A stretch of 40,040 nt of DNA from a virus (IMGVR_UViG_2547132278_000009), one strand, 5' to 3'. Shown: positions 17,547 through 37,806, numbered from the stretch's first letter. The notes: generated from the sequence alone by a model not told the origin. Program-made: numbers and translations.

Positions 17547-18803
17547 CTATCGAGAACCACCAAGAATAACACGGTTTTTGACTGGATACCTACGATGTAC
17601 TGGATAGCCCAATGCGTCTGCACTATGCTCAATGCCACCTGTCTTATCCATATCTCGTGTTCCAGGCTTGTAGATGACTTTTTCCAGTGAATCAATCAAA
17701 TGCTTGCACTTCGGATCGATATACAGCCGGATATCTCCAGATGCGGTCATCAGCATTCGGTTAACAGCATTAACACGATCCGCAATTGGCGGGTGCTTTT
17801 TCGAATAATCGACACGTAAGAATCCCTTCTCTTTGAATATGTCTACGTCAGACTCCCCACGAGCATGTTGGCGATAAGCACCTGCCGGATCTGGAAATAC
17901 CGTTACCTGTGATTTCCAGCGCCAGAAGCGTCTCTCAAGCTCATCACAAACTTCTGCCGTGTTAGAGGAAAAGAGCACCAATTCATCAATTGCCCATAGC
18001 TCACCATTTGGCTGAGGTTGCAAAATTACTGAAGACATCGGGTCAATGTTGAAGTCCTGCCCTACCCATATAGGCAACCGAGGGTTGAACTGAAGCGGTT
18101 TTACATGCACGTTACGATCGAACGGGTAGTAAACGCGCCCGGACATGTTCTCAAAGCTGGCCAGGTACTCCTGAGCGAACGATTTGGGGTCCATATCGTT
18201 CTTAGCAGCTTCAATTTCCGCCGTAGGTACAAACGGAGAATCGGCAGTTACAAACTGCCAGCTCTTCCACTGTCCCTTTCTTTGCAGCTCTACGTTCTGG
18301 CCTATAGTCCACAGTTTGTGAAATTCCGAGAAGCCTTTTGGCGTACCAATGATCAGTGCACCGCCGCGTGTCGATGAAAGAGTAGGTCGTAACACCTTGT
18401 ACCAGGTGTCAGCCTTCATATCCTGAAATTCATCAAGCACTACAAAATGCAACGCTACGCCGCGCAGAGTGTCAGGCTTATCAGCACCTTTGAGGGCGAT
18501 CTCCGAACCGTTCTTCAACACGATTGTCATCGTGGTGTCGTTCTTTTTCCTAACCCACTTACGAGGCAGAACTTCCTGTAGATCGTCCCACAAAATCTGG
18601 CGAGCCATCTGGTAAGTAGGAGCGACATACCAGACCCTTTGCTTTTTTTCCTTTGCCGCCGCACGAATAATAGTGGAGATCGACAACCGGGATTTTCCCC
18701 AGCGTCGACCAGCACAAACAACTTTAAATCGATGCGGAGACTGGAAGACTTTCATCTGTCCAGAATGCAGTTGCACAAGACTGAGCGAGGACGGGATTGC
18801 CAT
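17547..18803 (-). CDS. Terminase large subunit
   Basis: 418 aa; Walker A CAGRRWGKS, Walker B VVLDEFQD, C-terminal nuclease-like region; start overlaps stop of the small subunit gene. Confidence 0.85.
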   Translation of the reverse strand: MAIPSSLSLVQLHSGQMKVFQSPHRFKVVCAGRRWGKSRLSISTIIRAAAKEKKQRVWYVAPTYQMARQILWDDLQEVLPRKWVRKKNDTTMTIVLKNGSEIALKGADKPDTLRGVALHFVVLDEFQDMKADTWYKVLRPTLSSTRGGALIIGTPKGFSEFHKLWTIGQNVELQRKGQWKSWQFVTADSPFVPTAEIEAAKNDMDPKSFAQEYLASFENMSGRVYYPFDRNVHVKPLQFNPRLPIWVGQDFNIDPMSSVILQPQPNGELWAIDELVLFSSNTAEVCDELERRFWRWKSQVTVFPDPAGAYRQHARGESDVDIFKEKGFLRVDYSKKHPPIADRVNAVNRMLMTASGDIRLYIDPKCKHLIDSLEKVIYKPGTRDMDKTGGIEHSADALGYPVHRRYPVKNRVILGGSR

Positions 18804-19435
18804 TATTCGTCCTCCCCTTCACTTCCATCATCTGTCGCATCAAATTCGCTTAGAGCTTCTTCTTCCAACGTCTCAAGCAATTCGTCATCGATGATTTCAG
18901 GCTCGTCGTCTTCCTGACGTAATTTCGCCACCTGGGAAGGCGTAAGCTCACCAAATACCAGGTTCGGAATTTCTTCCTCGTCATTTTCCGCATGATCCAT
19001 GCCCAATGCTTTGGACGAAACTTCAAAGCATTTTGCAAGGGTATTACTGGCTCTCTGTAAGCTCTTGAGAGAATCCTCAATCGCCCCTAAAGGCTTACCC
19101 TCACGTTTGGCCGTAGTGACTTCGACCATCACCATCTGCCCCAACGCATACGCCCAGCCGTCATAACGTGTACGACGTTCTTCTATCTTTTCCGCACGGG
19201 CTTTAGCGCGAAGCTCTGCGTCAGATTTAAGAGACTCACGAACCATCTTCCCAACAGAGTCCGCGCCTTTCTCTAATCCTCGCTTTTTGAAATGTCTGGA
19301 GAGTGTTTCACGACGAATGCCGTACTCTTCCTCCAGCTTTGAGAGTGTATATTCGCCTGACGTCCATTTGGCTTCAGCTTCGGCCCACTCCGCTGGTGTC
19401 AGGCGAGTTTTTACCTCGTCTTTTTCGACCGTCAT
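18803..19435 (-). CDS. Terminase small subunit (candidate)
   Basis: 210 aa, N-terminal HTH-like region, very acidic C-terminus; directly upstream of the large subunit. Confidence 0.6.
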   Translation of the reverse strand: MTVEKDEVKTRLTPAEWAEAEAKWTSGEYTLSKLEEEYGIRRETLSRHFKKRGLEKGADSVGKMVRESLKSDAELRAKARAEKIEERRTRYDGWAYALGQMVMVEVTTAKREGKPLGAIEDSLKSLQRASNTLAKCFEVSSKALGMDHAENDEEEIPNLVFGELTPSQVAKLRQEDDEPEIIDDELLETLEEEALSEFDATDDGSEGEDE

Positions 19436-19474
19436 AGATCCCTCTAAAACACACAGAGCGCGTCCATGCGCTCT

Positions 19475-19517
19475 AAAACAACTTGTTTACTGCATCTGCT
19501 AACCAACTTGTTTTCTG
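19475..19517 (-). promoter_or_regulatory. Two copies of the palindromic operator family (AAAACAA-N-TTGTTT) upstream of the terminase small subunit gene
   Basis: AAAACAACTTGTTTAC (19475-19490) and AACCAACTTGTTTTCTG (19501-19517), with adjacent inverted repeat AGAGCGC-N6-GCGCTCT. Confidence 0.45.
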
Positions 19518-19630
19518 GGGTGTTTAATTAGATCTGGCATGTCTTACGAAGCCTGCTTCCGTATATATTTAATAAGTTACTTATTATTTATATATATAGA
19601 TGCAGGTCTTTAAATAAGCTCCCAGACCGA

Positions 19631-19897
19631 TTACATCACCAGTAACTTCGCTTTGGCTCGACCTAAAGTGGTTAACCCAAGAGTTCGGCGGTGATAGCGA
19701 TTGTCACTGCGTTGGCGCGTATGCCCTTTCTCCACCAGCCCCTTTTTTATCAGAGCGCGAATTGAGAACTGGATACTTTGCTTGGTTGTCTTGTACGGCA
19801 AAACTTCAAGCAATTCGTCCAGATCAAGTAGATGACCTCGCTCATAACCGAGATTGAGCGTTTTGATTATGTCCTTTTGTTTGTCGGTTAACGTCAT
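19631..19897 (-). CDS. Small basic protein, possibly winged-helix DNA binding
   Basis: 88-aa ORF 9 bp downstream of the GNAT-like gene; basic C-terminus; no firm motif. Confidence 0.35.
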   Translation of the reverse strand: MTLTDKQKDIIKTLNLGYERGHLLDLDELLEVLPYKTTKQSIQFSIRALIKKGLVEKGHTRQRSDNRYHRRTLGLTTLGRAKAKLLVM

Positions 19898-19906
19898 GGC
19901 AAATCC

Positions 19907-20797
19907 TTATGCCGGTAAAGCAATTTCTAACGGTTTATCCAAAGGTTGTTTGTCGAATGCCAGCAGTGGCAGCGTGTCAGGCAGTCGACGGCCAAAGTCA
20001 GGGTTTCGGTACACACCATACAACGGAGACGTAAAGCTCAGGTTGTGAATGTCCTTGAGCAGCTTCACAATGCTGGCCTCGTCCACCAGACTGTCGGCAA
20101 TGTCCTGAATCGTCGTGCCACGATTCCGCCCAGCTTTTGCCAGAGAACTGTTCTTGTGGTAGTCCGCCACCAAATCGCGCAGCGCACGGCGACGACGAGA
20201 CTCGCTCATAGCGAACAACTCTTTGACGATCGCCTCGTTATCACCCGGGTCGGAGCGGAAATGGCGCTGGAACACACGCAGTGCACTTTCATAGCTCTTC
20301 GGTCGCTCAGGGCGGATGAACTTAAACCCTGCTTTCATGGCGAAGGGATTGTATTTGCTCATCGAGGACTGGATCTCAATGATTGGCCGGTCATGCATCC
20401 TGCTAACCAGGTTAATCATTCGATAAGAGACGCCTACGCCACGATACTGAGTATCCACAACTGAGCGACTGATCACCGCAAAGTTGTTATTCACGTACCG
20501 ACCCCAGTACTGGTTAGCCACGGTGGTATTAGTGGTTGGTTTCAACTTAGGAAACATGCGGTGGCGAGGTGCCAACAGTAGTTTCGGGTAAGCCATAACC
20601 ACGACGCCCACCAGACGGTCATCAAGTTCGCAGCGATAGTAAGTTGGCGCGAAAGGTTTGCCGTCTGTTTTGTAGTGAAGCGACTTAAGAGCGTGCCAGT
20701 CCTCTACAGTTCCCTTTGTAACAGTCATTCGCTCCAGAAAGTCCAGATGACGCGGAAACTCTTCAGGGCGGTAGCGTTTAATGATGATGTCCGTCAT
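19907..20797 (-). CDS. GNAT-like acyltransferase-fold protein with extra C-terminal domain (hypothetical)
   Basis: 296 aa; YRGVGVSYRMINLV resembles GNAT motif A (R/Q-x-x-G-x-G/A); start overlaps the ATPase stop by 4 nt. Confidence 0.4.
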   Translation of the reverse strand: MTDIIIKRYRPEEFPRHLDFLERMTVTKGTVEDWHALKSLHYKTDGKPFAPTYYRCELDDRLVGVVVMAYPKLLLAPRHRMFPKLKPTTNTTVANQYWGRYVNNNFAVISRSVVDTQYRGVGVSYRMINLVSRMHDRPIIEIQSSMSKYNPFAMKAGFKFIRPERPKSYESALRVFQRHFRSDPGDNEAIVKELFAMSESRRRRALRDLVADYHKNSSLAKAGRNRGTTIQDIADSLVDEASIVKLLKDIHNLSFTSPLYGVYRNPDFGRRLPDTLPLLAFDKQPLDKPLEIALPA

Positions 20798-21459
20798 GAA
20801 TGGACCTCATCATGACTACCATTGTGATATTCCACCTTCACGCGTTCTTTGTAGTGCTTGGTGATCTGCATATCCGGGCGCAGCGCGTTCTTCAGGTCTT
20901 CGTGAGTCGTCGCCACCATTACCGTCGCACCAACCTTTCGAGCGGCACGCTGGAGGTTAGACGCCACAACCTGAGCGGTTACACGGTCGAGAACAGCGCC
21001 GAACTCGTCAGCAGCCCATACTTTAGCGCCTGACTCAATCAGTTTGGCAATCTTGAGACGATATTTCTGGCCGTCTGACATTTCAGAAGGCTTGCGAACA
21101 AACAGATATGCATCGTTCAGACCAGCCATAGATAACAACCCAAGCGCATCACTGGTCGTTTTGCCCAACTGATCGATGACGTTAACCTCATTATCGAAGG
21201 TAAAATCATCGATGGAGGCTACAGAAAGCCCTTCATCCTTCATCTGGCGTTGCAACTCGCGCAGCACAACGGATTTGCCGGAACCGGATTGGCCGGTGAT
21301 GTACACCACATCGCCCTGCTTCACTTCCAGCTCCAGATTGTCGTAAAGCGTCCACTCTTTTTCGTCCAGGCCAAGCCCGAACGACTCAGCGATTTCCAAC
21401 GTGCGCGTGGTTTTATTTACGCGTGTCTGAAACGATACGTTGATGATGTATTTGCTCAT
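20794..21459 (-). CDS. Minimal ABC-type ATPase (stand-alone nucleotide-binding domain)
   Basis: 221 aa; Walker A GQSGSGKS, signature-like SDGQKYRL, Walker B VWAADEFGAVLD, H-loop ATTHEDL; overlaps both neighbours by 4 nt. Confidence 0.7.
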   Translation of the reverse strand: MSKYIINVSFQTRVNKTTRTLEIAESFGLGLDEKEWTLYDNLELEVKQGDVVYITGQSGSGKSVVLRELQRQMKDEGLSVASIDDFTFDNEVNVIDQLGKTTSDALGLLSMAGLNDAYLFVRKPSEMSDGQKYRLKIAKLIESGAKVWAADEFGAVLDRVTAQVVASNLQRAARKVGATVMVATTHEDLKNALRPDMQITKHYKERVKVEYHNGSHDEVHS

Positions 21460-22124
21460 GCAGCCATCTCCCCGGAAGAGATCTTCTCCGCATATGCCAC
21501 AAATGCGTCTACCCCGCTTTCTCCCGTCATTTCTTCCATGTGGGCAAGCAAATCACCAACAACAATGGCAGAGCCAGCAGGGAGCGTTTTAAAGCCCAAT
21601 ACGTCGACAACACGTACTTCTTCCGCTGCAACTTCACGACTGATCTCGGTGTGTTCATCCTTCTGTCGTTTAGTTTCTTCGCCAAGATCGATAACTAGCG
21701 AATCGGTGTCCATTTCTTCTGTCATACTGCCAACGAGAACATTCAACTCACGCTCTTCAAAGCCGAAAACCTCGATATCGTCCAGAACAAGCGACTCAAG
21801 CTCTTTCTGTAGCTTAATTGCATCGTAATCAATGCTGGCAAGTCGGTTATCTTCAAGGCGCTTCGCACGAACCTCGTCATCACTGAGATCATCGCGAACA
21901 ATAACCGGTACGCGCTCAAGTCCAGCAAAAATTGCAGCCTCACGGCGGCCGTGGCCAGTAATAATTACGTCGTTCTTATCGACCGTAATTGGCTGGTCAA
22001 ATCCGCGCTTTTTAATGGCTGCGGCCAGATCTCGGATCTGCTGTTCATCATGCTTTTTGGCATTCATCTCATAGGGAATAAGATCTGCCGGGTCGCGATA
22101 TACGATTTCAAACTTTTTGGTCAT
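21456..22124 (-). CDS. ParB/Srx-like N-terminal domain protein (second of two)
   Basis: ITGHGRREAAIFAG matches the ParB arginine motif (GxxRxxA); probable start MTKKF overlapping the upstream stop as TAATG. Confidence 0.65.
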   Translation of the reverse strand: MTKKFEIVYRDPADLIPYEMNAKKHDEQQIRDLAAAIKKRGFDQPITVDKNDVIITGHGRREAAIFAGLERVPVIVRDDLSDDEVRAKRLEDNRLASIDYDAIKLQKELESLVLDDIEVFGFEERELNVLVGSMTEEMDTDSLVIDLGEETKRQKDEHTEISREVAAEEVRVVDVLGFKTLPAGSAIVVGDLLAHMEEMTGESGVDAFVAYAEKISSGEMAA

Positions 22125-22822
22125 TACATACGCTCCTTGTAGTAGTCGACCAGCCACACCAGAGCCTCACCAGCGTTCTCCATTTCATTACCGGTGTTAA
22201 TAGCCTGCTCTTTGATGATGTTTTTTATGGTTTCTGCAACACGATCTGACGCATCGAAAGTTACTTTGAAGCGCATGGTCTGATGTTCCGCACCCACACG
22301 TTCGGTTTTCTCTCGTTTGTCGGTATCGACAGGCTCATCACTACCACGAGACAACGCCTCCAGTGCTTCAAGGTCGATTGCCGCCTCTTTTGCTAAAACC
22401 ATCGAGATTTCGTCGTCATACGGGGCGATTTCAGACAGTTGATAGTCAAGTTCTGACTGAATTTCTTCAATGAAGCGTTGCAATGCGATTTGGTCGTCTT
22501 CACCGTATCGCTCGTTGTCCACCAGTGACATCTGTTTAGCTACGACATCGCTAATTTTGCCCACAGAAAGCACCGGAACCGTTGAAATTCCTTGCTCAAT
22601 AGCAGCACGCCAGCGATGTTCGCCGCCGAGGATTTCAAAAAATCCATCTTCAAGTTCACGAGCCAAAATTGGCTTAAAAAAGCCCAATTTTTCGATAGAA
22701 CCTTTCAGTTTTTCAAAATTCTGCGCACCAACCGAATTGGTGTTCCAGGTATTCGGGCGAAGGTTGGCAACATCAACCTGCAAAATCGTGATTTTTACAT
22801 CCATTTTATTGCTACAATCCAC
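22124..22822 (-). CDS. ParB/Srx-like N-terminal domain protein (first of two)
   Basis: ILGGEHRWRAAIEQG matches the ParB arginine motif; first gene of the operon, divergent from the helicase. Confidence 0.7.
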   Translation of the reverse strand: MDCSNKMDVKITILQVDVANLRPNTWNTNSVGAQNFEKLKGSIEKLGFFKPILARELEDGFFEILGGEHRWRAAIEQGISTVPVLSVGKISDVVAKQMSLVDNERYGEDDQIALQRFIEEIQSELDYQLSEIAPYDDEISMVLAKEAAIDLEALEALSRGSDEPVDTDKREKTERVGAEHQTMRFKVTFDASDRVAETIKNIIKEQAINTGNEMENAGEALVWLVDYYKERM

Positions 22823-22840
22823 TAAGTAATCACTTACTTA
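22823..22840. promoter_or_regulatory. Inverted repeat TAAGTAA-TCAC-TTACTTA in the divergent promoter region between the ParB operon and the helicase
   Basis: Read directly; followed by TATTATAAT (-10-like); member of a recurring TAAGTA/TACTTA palindrome family. Confidence 0.4.
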
Positions 22841-22886
22841 TTATAATAGCCAAATAACATACAAAAGGCACTAAGGAAAGAGGTTT

Positions 22887-24446
22887 ATGACTGTTCGGAT
22901 TGTATCTAACGCAGTTAATGCGCTTATTTCTGGCGCAGATGACAAGGTAAAGCAACTGGTGCAACAGATGTTGAGCTACGAAGTCGAGACTGGCGACTGG
23001 AAGGGCACAAGCACGATGTTCAACTGGAGTAAAAACTCGTTCCCTGCTGGCTTTGCCAAGCCTGTAGCGGCGAACTTGAACAAGGCGGGCATCAAATGTG
23101 TTCATATCCGCAAAGACAAAGCCCCGGCGCTTGGAAAGCCAAATCCGGCGGTTAACCCATTCCCATACAATCCTGATTATGCATATCAGGATCAGGCTGT
23201 GGAAACACTAGTTCGCGAGGGAATGATGATTGCCCAGATCGCTACTGGTGGTGGGAAATCTAACGTTGCCTGCAAAGCAGCTGCACGTATCGGTCGAATG
23301 ACATTATTTTTAACAACCCGCTCTGTTCTGATGTTTCAGATGGCCGAAAACTTCCAGAGATCCATCGACTACCGCGCCAAAAATGGCGAACCGTGGTTAA
23401 AAGACCAAAAGGTTGGAGTCATTGGCTCGGGTGAGTTCCAGGTATCGCGACATATCAACGTCGCTACAGTTCAAACTCTTGCAAGTTTCCTCGAAGAACC
23501 ACCACGCGATGCAACACCAGATAAGAAAAGCTACCACCTCAAACGTCGGGAGTTGGTGAAACGCTTCCTTTCAAGTGTCTCTCTTCTTATTCTGGAAGAG
23601 GCGCATGAGTCTTCAGGCTCTAATTTCTATGACATTGCCAGATTATGTGCGAACGCAGACTATCGCCTGGCGCTTACGGCAACGCCGTTCATGAAGGATT
23701 CTACGGAAGCCAACATGCGCCTGATGGCGGTGGCCGGGCGAATTGAAATTAAAGTCACAGAAAAGTACCTGATTGATCGAGGCATTCTGGCAAAGCCGTA
23801 CTTCCTTTATCATAAAGTTGCCTACAAACCAGACGAGGCCAGAATCAAGGCAGAGCTTGCCAACAAACACCTCAATTTTAGAGTAGGTATGAGCACTGCC
23901 TACCAAAAGGCTTATCAGTTGGGGATCGTGTATAATTTGGGACGTAACGAGGCCATTGTGCGCGAGGCATTGCTTTATAAGCAACATTCACTCAACTGCA
24001 TGACTCTGGTTCGTCTTAAACGCCACGGGCAAATCCTGATGGAGATGATGAAGGAGTCAGGTCTTAAAGTTGATTTCATCTATGGGGAATCTAACCAGAC
24101 GACAAGGCAAGCAAAGCTGAATAGTTTAGCGTCTGGTGAAATAGATGTTTTAATAGGCTCGACTATTCTGGATGTTGGTGTTGATGTGCCAAGCGTTGGT
24201 GCGGTCATTCTTGCTGGTGGTGGGAAAGCAGAAGTTGAAATGAGACAGCGTGTCGGTCGTGGCTTACGAGCCAAAAAAAATCAGGCAAACGTGTGTTTTA
24301 TCACTGATTTCATTGACATTAGCAACAAATACCTGTTGTCTCACTCTTATGAGCGAAAACACATCATCGACACCACACCTGGCTTTGCAGAAGGTGTATT
24401 GCCTATTGATGGAGCATTCGATTTTGGAGTTCTGAAACGAGATTAG
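22887..24446 (+). CDS. Superfamily-2 DEAD/DEAH-type helicase
   Basis: 519 aa; motif I AQIATGGGKSNVA, motif II LILEEAHE, motif III LTATP, motif VI QRVGRGLR; AAGGA RBS upstream. Confidence 0.85.
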   Translation: MTVRIVSNAVNALISGADDKVKQLVQQMLSYEVETGDWKGTSTMFNWSKNSFPAGFAKPVAANLNKAGIKCVHIRKDKAPALGKPNPAVNPFPYNPDYAYQDQAVETLVREGMMIAQIATGGGKSNVACKAAARIGRMTLFLTTRSVLMFQMAENFQRSIDYRAKNGEPWLKDQKVGVIGSGEFQVSRHINVATVQTLASFLEEPPRDATPDKKSYHLKRRELVKRFLSSVSLLILEEAHESSGSNFYDIARLCANADYRLALTATPFMKDSTEANMRLMAVAGRIEIKVTEKYLIDRGILAKPYFLYHKVAYKPDEARIKAELANKHLNFRVGMSTAYQKAYQLGIVYNLGRNEAIVREALLYKQHSLNCMTLVRLKRHGQILMEMMKESGLKVDFIYGESNQTTRQAKLNSLASGEIDVLIGSTILDVGVDVPSVGAVILAGGGKAEVEMRQRVGRGLRAKKNQANVCFITDFIDISNKYLLSHSYERKHIIDTTPGFAEGVLPIDGAFDFGVLKRD

Positions 24447-24795: not shown

Positions 24796-25218
24796 ATGAA
24801 ATACTCGCTTCTCCCTCTACTAACGTTACCAGTGTTGATGCTTACCGCGTGCCAATCACGCCCAATATCAATCCATGACGCCAAACCAGCACCGCAGGCC
24901 AAAGTGTTCAAGTATCAAAGCGCAGCGCCAGCTACGTTGGTGGTAATGAGAGACACAGGTTTTGTAGGAGCTGGATGTGATGCTTCCATTTTCATCAACG
25001 GCGAAACTGTCGCAAAACTGGCTACAGGCGAAAAAGCGACTTTCCATTTAAATGCCGGAGAATTAATTGTGGGTGCATCTCTTGAAGGTGCAGGTTTATG
25101 TGCTCTAAACCCCGCTCGTCAAGAGCGAGAAACGACTCTGAAGAATGGAGACACAAAAGCGTTCAGGGTGTTCACCAGCAATTCTGGTGACATCGACATT
25201 CTGCCAACAACTCTGTGA
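24796..25218 (+). CDS. Putative lipoprotein
   Basis: ORF 24754..25218; signal peptide MKYSLLPLLTLPVLMLTAC with lipobox L-T-A-C; preceded by GGGAGA RBS. Confidence 0.55.
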   Translation: MKYSLLPLLTLPVLMLTACQSRPISIHDAKPAPQAKVFKYQSAAPATLVVMRDTGFVGAGCDASIFINGETVAKLATGEKATFHLNAGELIVGASLEGAGLCALNPARQERETTLKNGDTKAFRVFTSNSGDIDILPTTL

Positions 25219-25747
25219 TGACATGACAACCAAAGATATTACCTACGGTATCCAAGCTGAACTCTGGCCGCGAGATTACACTAACGTTGAAAAACTACTG
25301 ATGTTCTGGCGCAGAGAACAAATTCCTGTAAGGGTCACTCTCGAAGATGGCCAGGCGTTTTGCATGTACGTTTATGGCCTCATGCCATCTCGTAACAAAG
25401 TTGACCTTTGCCCAGCCCCTTTTGACAAAGAAAATCGTATAAGGCTCCCACTTGAACGCATTAGTACAATTGAATCAGGTGTGGTTGACAGTATCGCTCA
25501 CGATTTCAAAGGTCGACTAACAGTTCACCCTGATTATGTCGATAATCGGCCATCACGCCGCGATTTTTTTGCAATTTGCAACCAAGCCTACAAAGCAAAC
25601 AAATCTATAAGGGTGTACATGGCGGATGGCCGTGAAATTGAGGGGGTGTCAGCAGGCGCAGATGCTTGTCAGGTTACACTACGTGTCGAGAACGGTAGAA
25701 AAATAGTTGTTTTGTTCGATTGGGTTGAACGAATTTTGCCTTTTTGA
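25214..25747 (+). CDS. Hypothetical protein with apparent internal duplication
   Basis: ORF 25145..25747; likely start MTTKDITYG overlapping the lipoprotein stop; two similar segments (IPVRVTLEDGQAFCMYVYG / IRVYMADGREIEGVSAG). Confidence 0.45.
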   Translation, partial: CDDMTTKDITYGIQAELWPRDYTNVEKLLMFWRREQIPVRVTLEDGQAFCMYVYGLMPSRNKVDLCPAPFDKENRIRLPLERISTIESGVVDSIAHDFKGRLTVHPDYVDNRPSRRDFFAICNQAYKANKSIRVYMADGREIEGVSAGADACQVTLRVENGRKIVVLFDWVERILPF

Positions 25748-34087: not shown

Positions 34088-36121
34088 TTACTTAACCTGA
34101 TGGCCTGGTTTAGCACCGGCATCCGGGCTTAACAGGAAGATATCTTTCCCGCCGGGGCCAGCAGCCATCACCATGCCTTCAGAGATACCGAAGCGCATTT
34201 TACGCGGAGCCAGGTTAGCCACCATAATGGTGTGACGACCAATCAGTGCCTGTGGATCTGGATAAGCGGAACGGATGCCTGAGAAGACATTACGCTTTTC
34301 ACCACCGAGATCCAGCGTCAGGCGCAGCAGTTTGTCAGAACCTTCGACAAACTCCGCGTTTTCAATCAGCGCCACACGCAGGTCAACTTTGGCGAAGTCG
34401 TCAAAGGTGATGGTTTCCTGAATCGGGTCGTCAGCCAGTGGGCCAGTTACCGGTGCAGCTGTGGCTTTCACTTCTTCTTTGGATGCTTCCACCAGTGCTT
34501 CCACCTGTTTCATATCGATACGGTTATACAGTGCCTTGAACGGATTCACTTTATGGCCCAGCAGCGGTTGCTGGATACCATCCCAGGTCAGTTCTGTATT
34601 CAGGAATGCTTCTGCACGTTCAGTCAGTTTCGGCAGTACCGGTTTCAGGTACGTCATCAGCACGCGGAACAGGTTAATGCCCATAGAGCAAATCGCCTGC
34701 AGATCGGCATCGCGTCCTTCCTGCTTCGCCACCACCCACGGAGCCTGTTCATCGACATAGCGGTTAGCCAGATCAGCCAGCGCCATGATTTCACGAATCG
34801 CTTTACCAAATTCGCGGCTTTCCCATGCTTCACCAATCACTTCAGCGGCATCAGTAAAGGTTTTGTACAGTTGCGGGTCAGCCAGTTCGCCTGCCAGCAC
34901 ACCGTCAAAACGCTTATTGATAAAGCCCGCGTTACGGGACGCCAGATTCACCACTTTGTTCACGATATCGGCATTCACGCGCTGAACGAAATCCTCCAGG
35001 TTGAGATCGATATCATCAATGCGCGAAGAGAGTTTCGCAGTGTAGTAGTAACGCAGGCTGTCAGCGTCAAAATGATTCAGCCAGGTGCTGGCTTTAATAA
35101 AGGTGCCGCGAGACTTGGACATCTTCGCACCGTTCACCGTCACATAGCCATGAACAAACAGGTTGGTCGGCTTGCGGAAGTTGCTGCCTTCCAGCATGGC
35201 AGGCCAGAACAGGCTGTGGAAGTAAACGATATCTTTACCGATGAAGTGGTACAGCTCGGCGGTGGAGTCTTTCTTCCAGTATTCGTCGAAGCTGGTAGTG
35301 TCGCCGCGTTTGTCGCACAGATTCTTGAAGGAACCCATGTAGCCAATCGGTGCGTCCAGCCAGACGTAGAAATATTTGCCCGGTGCGTTCGGAATTTCAA
35401 AACCGAAGTACGGCGCATCGCGGGAGATATCCCACTGTTGCAGGCCAGATTCAAACCACTCCTGCATTTTGTTTGCCACCTGCTCCTGCAACGCACCGCT
35501 GCGGGTCCATGCCTGCAACATTTCGCTGAAAGAGGGCAGATCAAAGAAGAAGTGTTCGGAATCACGCATTACCGGCGTAGCACCAGAAACTACCGATTTC
35601 GGCTCGATCAGTTCAGTCGGGCTGTAAGTCGCGCCGCAGACTTCACAGTTATCGCCGTATTGATCTGGCGCTTTACATTTAGGACAGGTGCCTTTTACAA
35701 AACGGTCCGGCAGGAACATGCCTTTTTCCGGGTCGTACAACTGAGAGATAGTGCGGTTTTTAATAAAACCGTTCTCTTTCAGGCGAGTATAGATAAGCTC
35801 AGACAACTGACGGTTCTCTTCGCTGTGCGTCGAGTGATAGTTGTCATAGCTGATGTTAAAGCCTGCGAAATCAGTCTGATGTTCCTGACTCATTTCGCCA
35901 ATCATCTGCTCCGGTGTGATACCAAGCTGCTGTGCTTTCAGCATGATCGGCGTACCGTGGGCATCGTCGGCACAGATGAAATTAACCTCGTGGCCGCGCA
36001 TTCGCTGGTAACGAACCCAGACATCAGCCTGGATGTGCTCCAGCATATGGCCGAGGTGGATTGAGCCGTTAGCGTACGGCAGCGCGCACGTCACCAGAAT
36101 TTTCTTCGCGACTTGGGTCAT
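34088..36121 (-). CDS. metG: Methionyl-tRNA synthetase
   Basis: Near-identity to E. coli MetG as I recall it (start [36 protein letters not shown] motif present); ORF-track N-terminal extension discarded. Confidence 0.97.
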
Positions 36122-36278
36122 AGTAGGCATTACTTCTTTGTAGTGAAAAGGGGCTTGATAGTAACAAAATGGCCTTATGTCTGCCATGTGATAACAGCAT
36201 TTCTCATAAATGATTAAATGTCGTAGCTGGAGTACACTACAAGGCGACAATTGCGCAAATTAAAATAAAGGAGACGGG

Positions 36279-37379
36279 ATGAGCGAGTCCAAATCGCCGG
36301 ATGCCCTGAGAGCAATGGTAGCCGGTACGCTGGCTAATTTTCAGCACCCAACCCTGAAACACAACCTGACTACGCTTAAAGCGTTACACCATGTTGCGTT
36401 GATGGATGACACACTGCATGTCGAACTAATCATGCCTTTCGTGTGGAATAAGCCTTTTGAAGACCTGAAAGAGCAATGTAGTGGTGATCTGCTCCGTATC
36501 ACTGGCGCAAAGGCTATTGACTGGAAGCTGTCGTACAACATTGCCACGCTTAAGCGTGTCAAAAACCAACCAGGCATTAATGGCGTTAAGAACATTATCG
36601 CCGTCAGCTCAGGCAAGGGCGGCGTGGGTAAATCCTCCACGGCGGTAAACCTGGCACTGGCGTTGGCTGCTGAAGGTGCGAAAGTTGGTATTTTGGATGC
36701 CGATATCTATGGTCCATCAATTCCAACCATGCTGGGCGCGGAAAACCAACGTCCAACCTCACCTGACGGTACTCACATGGCACCTATCATGTCTCATGGC
36801 CTGGCAACCAACTCTATTGGTTATCTGGTCACCGACGACAATGCAATGGTGTGGCGTGGACCGATGGCCAGCAAGGCGCTGATGCAGATGTTGCAGGAAA
36901 CTCTATGGCCTGATCTGGACTATCTTGTTCTCGATATGCCGCCGGGCACTGGTGATATTCAGTTGACGCTGGCGCAGAACATTCCTGTAACTGGTGCTGT
37001 TGTGGTAACTACGCCGCAAGACATCGCGCTGATCGATGCGAAGAAAGGCATTGTGATGTTCGAAAAAGTCGAAGTGCCGGTACTGGGTATCGTCGAAAAC
37101 ATGAGTGTGCATATTTGCAGTAACTGCGGTCATCACGAGCCAATTTTCGGCACCGGTGGCGCAGAGAAACTGGCCGAGAAATACAACACGCAGTTGTTAG
37201 GCCAAATGCCACTTCATATCTCACTTCGTGAAGATCTGGATAACGGAACACCAACCGTTATTAGTCGTCCAGATAGCGAATTTACGGCTATTTATCGTGA
37301 CCTCGCAGATCGCGTTGCTGCCCAAATGTATTGGCAAGGTGAAGTAATACCTGGCGAAATCGCATTCCGCGCAGTGTGA
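36279..37379 (+). CDS. mrp: Mrp/ApbC iron-sulfur cluster carrier ATPase
   Basis: Near-identity to E. coli Mrp as I recall it (P-loop SGKGGVGKSS, CSNCGHHE motif); divergent from metG. Confidence 0.95.
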   Translation: MSESKSPDALRAMVAGTLANFQHPTLKHNLTTLKALHHVALMDDTLHVELIMPFVWNKPFEDLKEQCSGDLLRITGAKAIDWKLSYNIATLKRVKNQPGINGVKNIIAVSSGKGGVGKSSTAVNLALALAAEGAKVGILDADIYGPSIPTMLGAENQRPTSPDGTHMAPIMSHGLATNSIGYLVTDDNAMVWRGPMASKALMQMLQETLWPDLDYLVLDMPPGTGDIQLTLAQNIPVTGAVVVTTPQDIALIDAKKGIVMFEKVEVPVLGIVENMSVHICSNCGHHEPIFGTGGAEKLAEKYNTQLLGQMPLHISLREDLDNGTPTVISRPDSEFTAIYRDLADRVAAQMYWQGEVIPGEIAFRAV

Positions 37380-37416: not shown

Positions 37417-37806
37417 CTACATCACGGGACAATCATCAAACTCGCCACTTCTTGCGTCGTTGATAATGTGAGTGATCACACCAAACACGGCATTGCTGCC
37501 CGTGCATCCATCGTCATCCTTTGGCAATGCTTCCTTCTTACCGGTTCTTAAATCCTCCAGATGCTGACGTGGATACTTCCGGTATCTTTTTACGCGATAT
37601 TCCCCATCCAGAGCGCATACAAGCAGAGAACCATCAACCGGGGTAAGTGAGGAATCGACCACCAGCAATGCACCCTGTAATATTCCCTCACGATGATGAC
37701 TATCAGCTGCCCTCATGAAGTAGGTCGCTGAAGGATGTCTAATTATCTGCTGATCAAGAGAAATACGGCTCTCAGCATAATCCGCCGCAGGAGAAGGGAA
37801 GCCCAT
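37417..37806 (-). CDS. UmuD-like S24 peptidase-family protein, without an adjacent umuC
   Basis: 129 aa; GFPSPAADY..., HPSATYF and GVITH match E. coli UmuD; Ser and Lys of the S24 dyad appear present (DSH..., VKR). Confidence 0.8.
   Translation of the reverse strand: MGFPSPAADYAESRISLDQQIIRHPSATYFMRAADSHHREGILQGALLVVDSSLTPVDGSLLVCALDGEYRVKRYRKYPRQHLEDLRTGKKEALPKDDDGCTGSNAVFGVITHIINDARSGEFDDCPVM

What the first reader, a model, noticed from the sequence alone, without database searches (positions are those of the whole stretch)
19907..22822. Translationally coupled ParB-ParB-ABC ATPase-GNAT operon directly upstream of the terminase genes
Four genes on the minus strand overlap by 1-4 nt (TAATG/ATGA junctions), indicating a single co-translated module: two different ParB/Srx-like proteins (GEHRWRAA and GHGRREAA arginine motifs), a 221-aa stand-alone ABC-type ATPase, and a 296-aa protein with a GNAT motif-A-like segment plus an unassigned C-terminal domain. 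I do not recognise this combination as a known partition, defense or packaging module. Its position next to terS/terL and the known role of ParB-like proteins in DNA modification pathways suggest a phage DNA modification or anti-restriction module; a defense or partition role is also possible. Function is inference only.
Basis: partly seen in the sequence, partly recalled or inferred. Interest (0 to 1): 0.8.

Follow-up and report, generated by a model that had tools for sequence, protein, structure and literature searches.

The report
Conserved phage ParB–ABC–GNAT operon, function untested
A tightly coupled five-gene operon next to the DNA-packaging genes of an SSU5-type phage-plasmid pairs two ParB-like switch proteins with an ATPase and an acyltransferase; it is widespread, has no tested function, is not the plasmid's partition system, and most likely acts on phage DNA.

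Summary
On the minus strand, ParB1, ParB2, an ABC ATPase and a 296-aa protein overlap by 1, 4 and 4 nt. A fifth gene (88 aa, probable winged-helix protein) follows after 9 nt, then a 195-bp gap, then terS/terL.

The window is an SSU5-type E. coli phage-plasmid (99.2% identical to phage Cyrano). The block is not rare:
- The 296-aa gene is in 967 PLSDB plasmids, including Yersinia pestis pMT1.
- The block keeps its order in phages of Pseudomonas, Rhizobium, Stenotrophomonas and Xanthomonas and in Acinetobacter plasmids.
- All five genes are under strong purifying selection.

The 296-aa protein has a GNAT fold with an intact acyl-CoA motif and a helical insertion, and it is very basic. ABC plus GNAT is a split form of a widespread viral fusion protein (the kind annotators call [quoted passage not shown]). 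Elsewhere that fusion is joined to DNA polymerase B, or sits among replication genes or beside TerL.

Both ParBs lack an HTH domain and are very acidic. pMT1 carries a separate ParA/ParB operon, so a partition role is unlikely. No PADLOC defence system matches.

Best reading (about 0.35): an ATP-driven, ParB-assisted acyltransferase acting on replicated phage DNA. The function is inferred, not shown.

The parts
22887..24446 (+). Divergently transcribed SF2 (UvsW/DEAD-box-like) helicase, a conserved neighbour of the operon
   Evidence: Pfam ResIII, DEAD and Helicase_C and PHROG 16. The same divergent position is found in SSU5, nickie, RHEph10, BUCTxx99, JGB6, RHph_X66, an A. baumannii plasmid and pMT1.
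22823..22886 (.). 64-bp divergent intergenic region; presumed promoter of the operon (a TATAAT-like hexamer read on the minus strand)
   Evidence: Sequence read. The consensus promoter scan did not call it. It has no AAACAAnTTGTTT element. Promoter function is inferred.
22124..22804 (-). ParB1: ParB N-terminal (NTP-switch) domain, acidic linker, and a small C-terminal beta-helix-helix domain. An alternative GTG start lies at 22822.
   Evidence: PF02195 at 3.3e-13; PHROG 723 at 2e-79. It aligns to Thermus Spo0J with GEHRWRAA on GERRYRAA. No HTH_ParB hit. pI 4.55, net charge -18. Orthologue alignment A3.
21456..22124 (-). ParB2: paralogous ParB N-domain protein with the same architecture; its first ~150 residues resemble the N-terminal module of ParB-methyltransferase fusions
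   Evidence: PF02195 at 1.3e-08; PHROG 930 at 1e-112 and PHROG 498 (DNA methyltransferase, profile positions 31-179) at 1.7e-31. PADLOC MTase_II, N-terminal part, 2.9e-17. pI 4.53, net charge -22.
20794..21459 (-). Stand-alone ABC-type ATPase (single nucleotide-binding domain) with all catalytic motifs and no membrane partner
   Evidence: PF00005 at 5.8e-13; PHROG 293; only generic ABC matches in PDB. Motifs read from the translation. Homologues are fused N-terminally to the GNAT domain in many viral proteins.
19907..20797 (-). GNAT-fold acyltransferase-like protein: core ~20-165, helical insertion ~169-254, final strands 259-277. Strongly basic.
19631..19897 (-). 88-aa basic protein, probable winged-helix DNA binder; fifth operon member (9-nt gap, Shine-Dalgarno sequence over the upstream stop)
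   Evidence: PHROG 900 at 1.9e-45. Weak hits only: LexA_DNA_bind 0.072, Sta1/Lrs14, C-terminal part of a PADLOC CARF3 model 4.5e-05. pI 10.2. A gene of this size holds this position in every lineage examined.
19436..19630 (.). Intergenic region before terS: AT-rich palindrome 19552-19606, two AAACAAnTTGTTT palindromes (19476, 19501) and a hairpin 19454-19475. Candidate cos/pac site and late-operon control region.
   Evidence: Repeats, hairpin, motif enrichment. Conserved in SSU5 and IMG/VR relatives. The Cyrano and SSU5 records are both linearised inside it.
18803..19435 (-). terS-like protein (small terminase candidate)
   Evidence: PHROG 867 at 2.2e-100. Annotated as small terminase subunit in Cyrano.
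17547..18803 (-). Large terminase subunit
   Evidence: Pfam Terminase_6N, Terminase_3 and Terminase_6C; PHROG 10250 and PHROG 2.

Best explanation
The block is a five-gene operon (ParB1, ParB2, ABC ATPase, GNAT acyltransferase, small winged-helix protein) that belongs to the conserved core of SSU5-type phages and phage-plasmids.

Its catalytic core is the ABC ATPase plus the GNAT enzyme. These are the two halves, in the same order, of a widespread viral two-domain protein.

Proposed mechanism:
1. The ATPase dimerises on ATP and works with the strongly basic GNAT enzyme on newly replicated phage DNA.
2. The GNAT transfers an acyl group from an acyl-CoA to a DNA base before packaging. ATP hydrolysis gives access to the base or drives turnover, as the ATPase domain does in the RNA cytidine acetyltransferases TmcA/NAT10.
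3. The two acidic ParB-fold proteins act as nucleotide-gated activators or targeting partners of the enzyme. ParB domains do this in ParB-methyltransferase fusions and for ParB-dependent phage thymine dioxygenases.
4. The outcome would be marking of phage DNA that blunts host nucleases.

Shown here: gene structure and coupling, folds and motifs, the fusions, the synteny, the genomic associations and purifying selection.

Inferred: that DNA is the substrate, that an acyl-CoA is the donor, what the ParBs do, and the biological effect.
For: - ABC and GNAT form one unit. A profile search finds many 450-900-aa proteins with ABC_tran at the N-terminal side and this domain at the C-terminal side.
- Link to DNA metabolism. 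A 1260-aa PolB-ABC-GNAT fusion recurs on at least 24 contigs inside a Prim-Pol/RecA/exonuclease module. Other fusions sit next to PolB, RNR and an RFC-like ATPase, next to Pol III alpha, or in an SPbeta-like replication module. One overlaps the end of TerL. Here the operon precedes terS/terL.
- Charge. The GNAT protein has pI 9.8 and net charge +15, which suits nucleic-acid binding.
- Constraint. ABC and GNAT evolve about as slowly as TerL, while ParB1, terS and the helicase evolve faster.
Against: - No modified base has been reported for any phage carrying this operon, and none was tested here.
- Most characterised GNATs acetylate proteins or small molecules.
- ParB is absent from every fused-homologue context examined, so the ParB link is specific to this lineage.
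- The ParB proteins, including their C-terminal domains, are acidic and have no recognisable DNA-binding domain.
- The genomic associations are with replication and packaging genes in general. That fits a protein substrate in those machines equally well.
Confidence: 0.35

Rival explanations
1. The ABC-GNAT pair is an ATP-dependent protein acetyltransferase. It modifies a phage or host protein of the replication/packaging machinery or a host defence protein, so it would be anti-defence or host takeover by acetylation. The ParB proteins would act as regulators.
Against: There is no precedent known to me for an ABC ATPase coupled to a protein acetyltransferase. A covalent fusion to PolB, and a very basic enzyme, are easier to explain with a nucleic-acid substrate. 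ParB partners have so far been documented with DNA-modifying enzymes.
Confidence: 0.25
2. The operon is a packaging or genome-end accessory. The ParB-like proteins act as NTP-regulated nicking nucleases or DNA clamps. Together with the winged-helix protein and the ATPase, they prepare concatemeric DNA or the cos/pac region for terminase.
For: The position immediately upstream of a palindrome-rich candidate cos region and terS/terL is invariant in all lineages examined. One fused homologue overlaps TerL. ParB-fold domains with nicking or NTPase activity have been reported (PMC5512222). ParB1, the 88-aa protein and terS co-vary as the fastest-evolving members, as DNA-site-specific proteins would.
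Against: This gives no role to a conserved, apparently catalytic GNAT. Most fused homologues lie in replication modules, not packaging modules. No packaging system of this composition is known to me.
Confidence: 0.12
3. The ParB proteins and the winged-helix protein are transcription regulators of the adjacent late operon (KorB/VirB-like ParB-family regulators). The ABC-GNAT pair would be an unrelated passenger.
For: The operon ends just before a control region holding two copies of a genome-wide palindromic element. ParB-family regulators such as KorB are known (discussed in PMC13229309).
Against: Translational coupling and strict co-conservation of all five genes across distant lineages argue for one function. 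Neither ParB has an HTH domain. The palindromic element is absent from the operon's own upstream region.
Confidence: 0.08
4. It is the plasmid partition system of the phage-plasmid: ParB centromere binders with an unusual ATPase.
For: Two ParB_N proteins are present. The literature labels them partition genes (PMC7969092) and uses SSU5 'parB' as a marker gene. ParA-like genes lie about 3 kb away in Rhizobium phages.
Against: The ATPase is ABC-type, not a ParA/Walker-type partition ATPase. Neither ParB has an HTH_ParB or a known dimerisation-domain hit. By inspection, neither N-terminus carries an LG[KR]GL-type ParA-binding motif. Y. pestis pMT1 keeps this block and also has a separate ParA (401 aa) plus ParB (323 aa) operon about 40 kb away. 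SSU5 has its own ParA-like gene elsewhere. The block is also conserved in Nickievirus phages that are predicted to be lytic (PMC8537276). A GNAT has no place in partition.
Confidence: 0.05
5. It is a defence system carried by the phage-plasmid that protects the lysogen against other phages or plasmids.
For: Individual proteins hit PADLOC models: mad3/mad8 and PtuA ATPases, and MTase_II. An SSU5-like Klebsiella plasmid has been reported to reduce phage infection and plasmid uptake (PMC8969562).
Against: The PADLOC hits cover only generic P-loop or ParB_N regions, and the GNAT protein has no hit. The cited paper attributes the effect to a restriction-modification system. The block is part of the conserved phage core next to structural genes, is present in phages predicted to be lytic, and does not vary the way defence islands do.
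Confidence: 0.05

Closest known systems
Viral 'ABC-type ATPase fused to a predicted acetyltransferase domain' proteins (annotators' label; COG2401/MK0520-type)
   Same: Both halves are homologous and in the same order, ABC then GNAT. JGI and the Cyrano annotators already use this label for the window's two proteins.
   Different: Here the two domains are separate, translationally coupled genes and are joined to two ParB genes. The family itself has no characterised function; no paper in the library mentions COG2401.
Phage Mu Mom (GNAT-fold enzyme that modifies adenine in dsDNA using Gly-tRNA; PF25680)
   Different: There is no significant sequence relationship (hhalign probability 0.4%; no PF25680 hit). 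The window protein keeps a canonical acyl-CoA motif A, where Mom has PRNSES. Mom needs no ATPase or ParB partner.
ParB-dependent phage thymine dioxygenases, and ParB-methyltransferase / ParB-acetyltransferase fusions
   Same: A ParB N-terminal NTP-binding fold without the classical HTH is partnered with an enzyme (PMC13229309; PMC12704722). ParB2 matches the N-terminal module of ParB-methyltransferases.
   Different: The partner enzyme is a GNAT plus an ABC ATPase. Two paralogous ParBs are used. No activity has been tested.
TmcA / NAT10 RNA cytidine acetyltransferases (from my own knowledge)
   Same: A P-loop ATPase is coupled to a GNAT domain to acetylate a nucleic-acid base with ATP hydrolysis. 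This is a working analogy for why an ATPase would accompany a GNAT.
   Different: Their ATPase is helicase-like, not ABC. There is no sequence relationship, the substrate is tRNA/rRNA, and nothing was tested here.
Type I ParABS plasmid/chromosome partition systems
   Same: ParB N-terminal domain with the GxxRxxA arginine motif; best PDB sequence matches are Spo0J, ParB and Noc.
   Different: No ParA-type ATPase in the operon, no HTH_ParB, and no recognised centromere. pMT1 carries a separate bona fide ParA/ParB operon.

Membership tests
Type I ParABS partition system | Adjacent ParA (deviant Walker-type) ATPase | tested here: not met
   The operon's ATPase is ABC_tran (5.8e-13) with an SDGQ signature motif. 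CbiA/ParA scores only 19 bits, below its 25.4 cutoff.
Type I ParABS partition system | ParB with a central HTH DNA-binding domain and a C-terminal dimerisation domain | tested here: not met
   Only PF02195 is found. The C-terminal halves give no Pfam hit even at E<=10 and no PDB hit.
Type I ParABS partition system | ParB N-terminal domain with the GxxRxxA box | tested here: met
   PF02195 is above cutoff for both proteins. GEHRWRAA and GHGRREAA align to GERRYRAA of Spo0J.
Type I ParABS partition system | It is the element's only or necessary partition locus | tested here: not met
   pMT1 carries the block plus a separate ParA/ParB operon. SSU5 has a ParA-like gene elsewhere. Plasmid stability itself cannot be tested with these tools.
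GNAT (acyl-CoA N-acyltransferase) superfamily | GNAT fold | tested here: met
GNAT (acyl-CoA N-acyltransferase) superfamily | Motif A, R/Q-x-x-G-x-G/A (pyrophosphate-binding loop) | tested here: met
   R119 and G122 are invariant, and position 124 is S, A or G in 34 homologues.
GNAT (acyl-CoA N-acyltransferase) superfamily | Pfam GNAT model at gathering score | tested here: inconclusive
   The window protein scores 14.4 bits on Acetyltransf_10, below the 23.6 cutoff. Fused relatives P0358 and P0376 pass Acetyltransf_1 with 25.6 and 24.7 bits against a 20.7 cutoff.
GNAT (acyl-CoA N-acyltransferase) superfamily | Binds acyl-CoA and transfers the acyl group | not testable with these tools
   Requires biochemistry.
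Mom family (PF25680) | Sequence-profile membership | tested here: not met
   No PF25680 hit at E<=10. hhalign of A1 against the Mom alignment A2 gives probability 0.4% and E 0.13.
Mom family (PF25680) | Catalytic residues R111, S124, D149, R151 and H58/Y59 | tested here: inconclusive
   An invariant H-Y and an Arg in strand 4 exist, and the H-Y pair aligns to H58/Y59 in a non-significant alignment. No structural superposition was available to check the rest.
ABC ATPase superfamily | Walker A, Q-loop, signature, Walker B, D-loop and H-loop | tested here: met
   PF00005. Read from the translation: GQSGSGKS, SDGQ, AADE, LD and TTH.
ABC transporter | Cognate membrane permease or substrate-binding protein | tested here: not met
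   None is present in the operon or its conserved neighbours. The common 'ABC transporter' annotation is therefore misleading.
Viral ABC-GNAT fusion family (COG2401-type) | Homology of both halves, in the same order | tested here: met
   The profile built from the 296-aa family hits the C-terminal halves of proteins whose N-terminal halves are ABC_tran.
Known anti-phage defence systems (PADLOC 2.0) | System-specific protein models for all components | tested here: not met
   Only domain-level hits (MTase_II N-terminus, mad3/mad8, PtuA P-loop). No hit for the GNAT protein.
ParB-partnered DNA-modification modules | ParB N-domain protein lacking an HTH, encoded with the enzyme | tested here: met
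   compared with PMC13229309.
ParB-partnered DNA-modification modules | The partner enzyme modifies DNA, and ParB is required for its activity | not testable with these tools
   Requires co-expression followed by nucleoside mass spectrometry.

The most novel reading that the evidence does not exclude
The ABC-GNAT pair is a new class of ATP-powered DNA acyltransferase, here gated by two ParB-fold NTP switches. It would install a so-far undetected base modification on the DNA of SSU5-type phages and phage-plasmids (967 sequenced plasmids, including Y. pestis pMT1, plus several genera of phages). In other viruses the same enzyme is fused to the replicative polymerase, which would couple modification to replication.
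Probability: 0.3. Interest if true: 0.85.

Novelty: new variant of a known kind. Interest (0 to 1): 0.6.

Why it matters
- The operon is part of the conserved core of one of the largest groups of phage-plasmids in clinical Enterobacteriaceae and Acinetobacter. It is retained at 99% protein identity in Y. pestis pMT1. Yet its genes are annotated as 'hypothetical', 'ABC transporter' or 'partition protein'.
- If ABC-GNAT is a nucleic-acid acyltransferase, it would add an enzyme class to phage DNA modification chemistry.
- It would also give a function to a widespread uncharacterised viral protein family, including its polymerase fusions.
- It would extend the newly recognised role of ParB-fold proteins as partners of DNA-modifying enzymes.
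- Even if the substrate turns out to be a protein, correcting the partition and transporter labels matters for phage-plasmid typing and biology.

Tried and rejected
- AlphaFold2 of ParB1 from a single sequence gave pLDDT 44.8 and was unusable.
- The Foldseek afdb50 library was unavailable.
- The idea that the ParB C-terminal domains are ribbon-helix-helix rests only on the beta-helix-helix residue pattern in alignment A3. Profile searches of PDB and Pfam found nothing, and the domains are acidic. I do not claim it.
- Mom family membership was tested and rejected.
- Literature searches for COG2401 and for the annotators' phrase found nothing. One malformed search failed.
- I first took the 366-aa 'MinD' gene for the element's ParA. 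It is ApbC/Mrp, next to metG, a captured host locus, so I withdrew that argument and used pMT1 and SSU5 instead.
- The homologue search with the ABC protein returned only near-identical sequences and added little.
- The IMG/VR scan returned only close relatives at 78-100% identity. It served for intactness and dN/dS, not for diversity.
- Synonymous sites are saturated in most comparisons, so many dN/dS values could not be calculated.
- I did not run the metagenome or genome-collection scans. They would show taxonomic breadth but would not settle the function.
Full report
**What is there.** The four minus-strand ORFs are real. Their junctions are as described: ParB1/ParB2 share TAATG (1 nt), and ParB2/ABC and ABC/296-aa each share ATGA (4 nt). 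Two things were missed. An 88-aa gene (19631..19897) follows the 296-aa gene after 9 nt, with a Shine-Dalgarno sequence over the stop codon, so the operon has five genes. A 195-bp palindrome-rich intergenic region then separates it from terS (18803..19435) and terL (17547..18803). ParB1 more likely starts at the ATG at 22804 than at the GTG at 22822. An SF2 helicase is transcribed divergently from a 64-bp spacer.

**Source and distribution.** The window is an SSU5-type E. coli phage-plasmid. The region is 99.2% identical to Escherichia phage Cyrano and 85% to Salmonella phage SSU5. All five proteins fall in existing PHROG families (723, 930, 293, 886, 900).

The order helicase <-|-> ParB1, ParB2, ABC, GNAT, small protein, gap, terS, terL, portal, capsid is preserved, with zero to three small ORFs inserted, in:
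- Pseudomonas phage nickie and Rhizobium phages RHEph10 and RHph_X66;
- Stenotrophomonas phage BUCTxx99 and Xanthomonas phage JGB6;
- an Acinetobacter baumannii phage-plasmid and Yersinia pestis pMT1.

The 296-aa gene is found in 31 phage records and 967 PLSDB plasmids: Klebsiella 341, Escherichia 207, Acinetobacter 147, Enterobacter 90, Yersinia 62. In 80 IMG/VR loci the genes are intact in 75-80 cases; shortfalls I looked at coincide with short loci or partial matches. dN/dS is 0.01-0.15 wherever synonymous sites are not saturated. ABC and GNAT evolve about as slowly as TerL, while ParB1, terS and the helicase evolve faster.

**The proteins.**
- *ParB1 and ParB2.* Both pass Pfam ParB_N, and their closest solved relatives are Spo0J, ParB and Noc N-domains. 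Orthologue alignment shows the same plan in both: ParB N-domain, acidic linker, and a ~45-residue C-terminal beta-helix-helix element. Neither has a detectable HTH or known dimerisation domain. Both are very acidic (pI 4.5). ParB2's first ~150 residues match the N-terminal module of ParB-methyltransferase fusions (PHROG 498 at 1.7e-31, PADLOC MTase_II at 2.9e-17).
- *ABC protein.* It is a complete single nucleotide-binding domain (motifs read) with no membrane partner. 'ABC transporter' is a misnomer here.
- *88-aa protein.* It is basic and gives only weak winged-helix matches.

**The key comparative result.** A profile search of 1.84 billion representative proteins with the 296-aa family found 890 relatives. 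Many are 450-900-aa proteins in which this domain follows an ABC_tran domain. Some of those reach the Pfam GNAT cutoff. The window's ABC and GNAT genes are therefore a split form of a widespread fusion, which matches the label annotators already use. No paper in the library discusses that family.

Contexts of the fused forms all point to DNA metabolism:
- a 1260-aa PolB-ABC-GNAT fusion on at least 24 contigs, inside a Prim-Pol/RecA/5'-3' exonuclease module;
- neighbours of PolB, RNR and an RFC-like ATPase;
- a neighbour of Pol III alpha;
- an SPbeta-like replication module;
- one gene that overlaps the 3' end of terL.

None of these contexts had a ParB gene. The ParB pair is thus an addition specific to the SSU5/nickie/RHEph10 lineage.

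**What it is not.**
- *Not the partition system.* The ATPase is not ParA-type and the ParBs lack an HTH. pMT1 carries the block and, about 40 kb away, a separate ParA (401 aa)/ParB (323 aa) operon. SSU5 has a ParA-like gene elsewhere. Nickieviruses that carry the block are predicted to be lytic (PMC8537276). The phage-plasmid literature nevertheless treats these ParBs as partition or marker genes.
- *Not a named defence system.* PADLOC gives only domain-level hits and nothing for the GNAT protein.
- *Not a Mom-family member.* There is no PF25680 hit and hhalign gives 0.4% probability.

**Most likely mechanism (confidence about 0.35).** An ATP-driven ABC dimer and the basic GNAT enzyme act on replicated phage DNA and transfer an acyl group from an acyl-CoA to a base before packaging. 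The two acidic ParB-fold proteins would be nucleotide-gated activators or targeting partners. The support is indirect:
- the polymerase fusions and the replication and terminase neighbourhoods;
- the charge of the enzyme;
- the intact CoA motif;
- published precedents.

The precedents are these. Mom is a GNAT-fold enzyme that modifies adenine in dsDNA, and its C-terminal insertion and H58/Y59 are important (PMC13219725). The window family has an insertion at a similar place and an invariant H-Y, and the best (non-significant) hhalign alignment places that H-Y on H58/Y59. One class of phage thymine dioxygenases needs a ParB-like partner that lacks a DNA-binding domain (PMC13229309). ParB-methyltransferase and ParB-acetyltransferase fusions exist (PMC12704722). 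TmcA/NAT10 (my own knowledge) shows why an ATPase can accompany a GNAT that acts on a nucleic-acid base.

Against this model: no modified base has been reported or tested, most GNATs act on proteins or small molecules, and the ParB link does not extend beyond this lineage.

**Rivals.** Protein acetylation of replication, packaging or defence proteins (0.25); a packaging or genome-end accessory role (0.12); regulation of the late operon (0.08); partition (0.05); a defence system (0.05).

**Verdict.** The module is real, ancient and strongly constrained. It is common in clinically important plasmids, is mis-annotated, and has no tested function. Its core belongs to an uncharacterised viral ABC-GNAT family tied to DNA replication and packaging. 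I rate it a new variant of a known kind (enzyme modules partnered with ParB-fold proteins; GNATs coupled to ATPases), with interest 0.6.

Noticed in passing
window 19476-19488, 19501-19513, 28616, 29380, 30283, 30767, 31144, 32327, 33940, 33991: A 13-bp palindrome, AAACAAnTTGTTT, occurs 10 times (<=1 mismatch) against 0.29 expected. Most copies lie 5-70 nt upstream of minus-strand ORF starts, including two copies before terS. SSU5 has 18 copies, 25-48 nt upstream of its ParA-like, DnaB-like, NrdB, methyltransferase and many small genes. The element is absent upstream of ParB1. It is probably a dispersed operator or promoter element, possibly for the PHROG 1444 repressor at 25145-25747.
   Followed up: partly
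window 19552-19606: An AT-rich near-perfect palindrome flanked by CCTGC/GCAGG lies between the 88-aa gene and terS. It is conserved in SSU5 and an IMG/VR relative. The Cyrano and SSU5 GenBank records are both linearised inside it, so it is a candidate cos/pac site.
   Followed up: partly
window 34088-37379: The phage-plasmid carries a diverged copy of the host metG (methionyl-tRNA synthetase) and apbC/mrp locus. It is 80-95% identical to E. coli chromosomal copies and 95-100% identical to 225 plasmid copies. It matches ETEC strain TW10722 plasmid NZ_CP035843.1 at 100%. Cyrano annotates the ApbC gene as 'MinD'.
   Followed up: yes
window 37417-37806 (-): A UmuD/HumD-like S24 peptidase gene (PHROG 811) lies next to the captured metG-apbC locus.
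   Followed up: no
L009-L012 (gene at L009:10001-13783): A 1260-aa protein fuses family-B DNA polymerase (exonuclease plus polymerase domains) to an ABC ATPase and the GNAT-like domain. It recurs on at least 24 metagenomic viral contigs inside a Prim-Pol/RecA/exonuclease/RNA-ligase module.
   Followed up: partly
L018:31812-32066 (SSU5_128); L108:5741-5995 (pMT1): SSU5, pMT1 and Klebsiella relatives have an extra ~84-aa ORF between the ABC and GNAT genes that is absent from the window. Other lineages insert different small ORFs at the same junctions, including a thioredoxin-family gene in A. baumannii and DUF2829 in Rhizobium phages.
   Followed up: no
L018:2549-3652 (SSU5_081), outside the window: SSU5 encodes an unusually long (367-aa) 'thymidylate synthase' next to a nucleotide pyrophosphohydrolase, DHFR and a small AAA ATPase. 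This is worth checking as a possible pyrimidine hydroxymethylase pathway in the same phage group.
   Followed up: no
P0285 (847 aa): One fused ABC-GNAT homologue carries an intein with a LAGLIDADG homing endonuclease inside its ABC domain.
   Followed up: no
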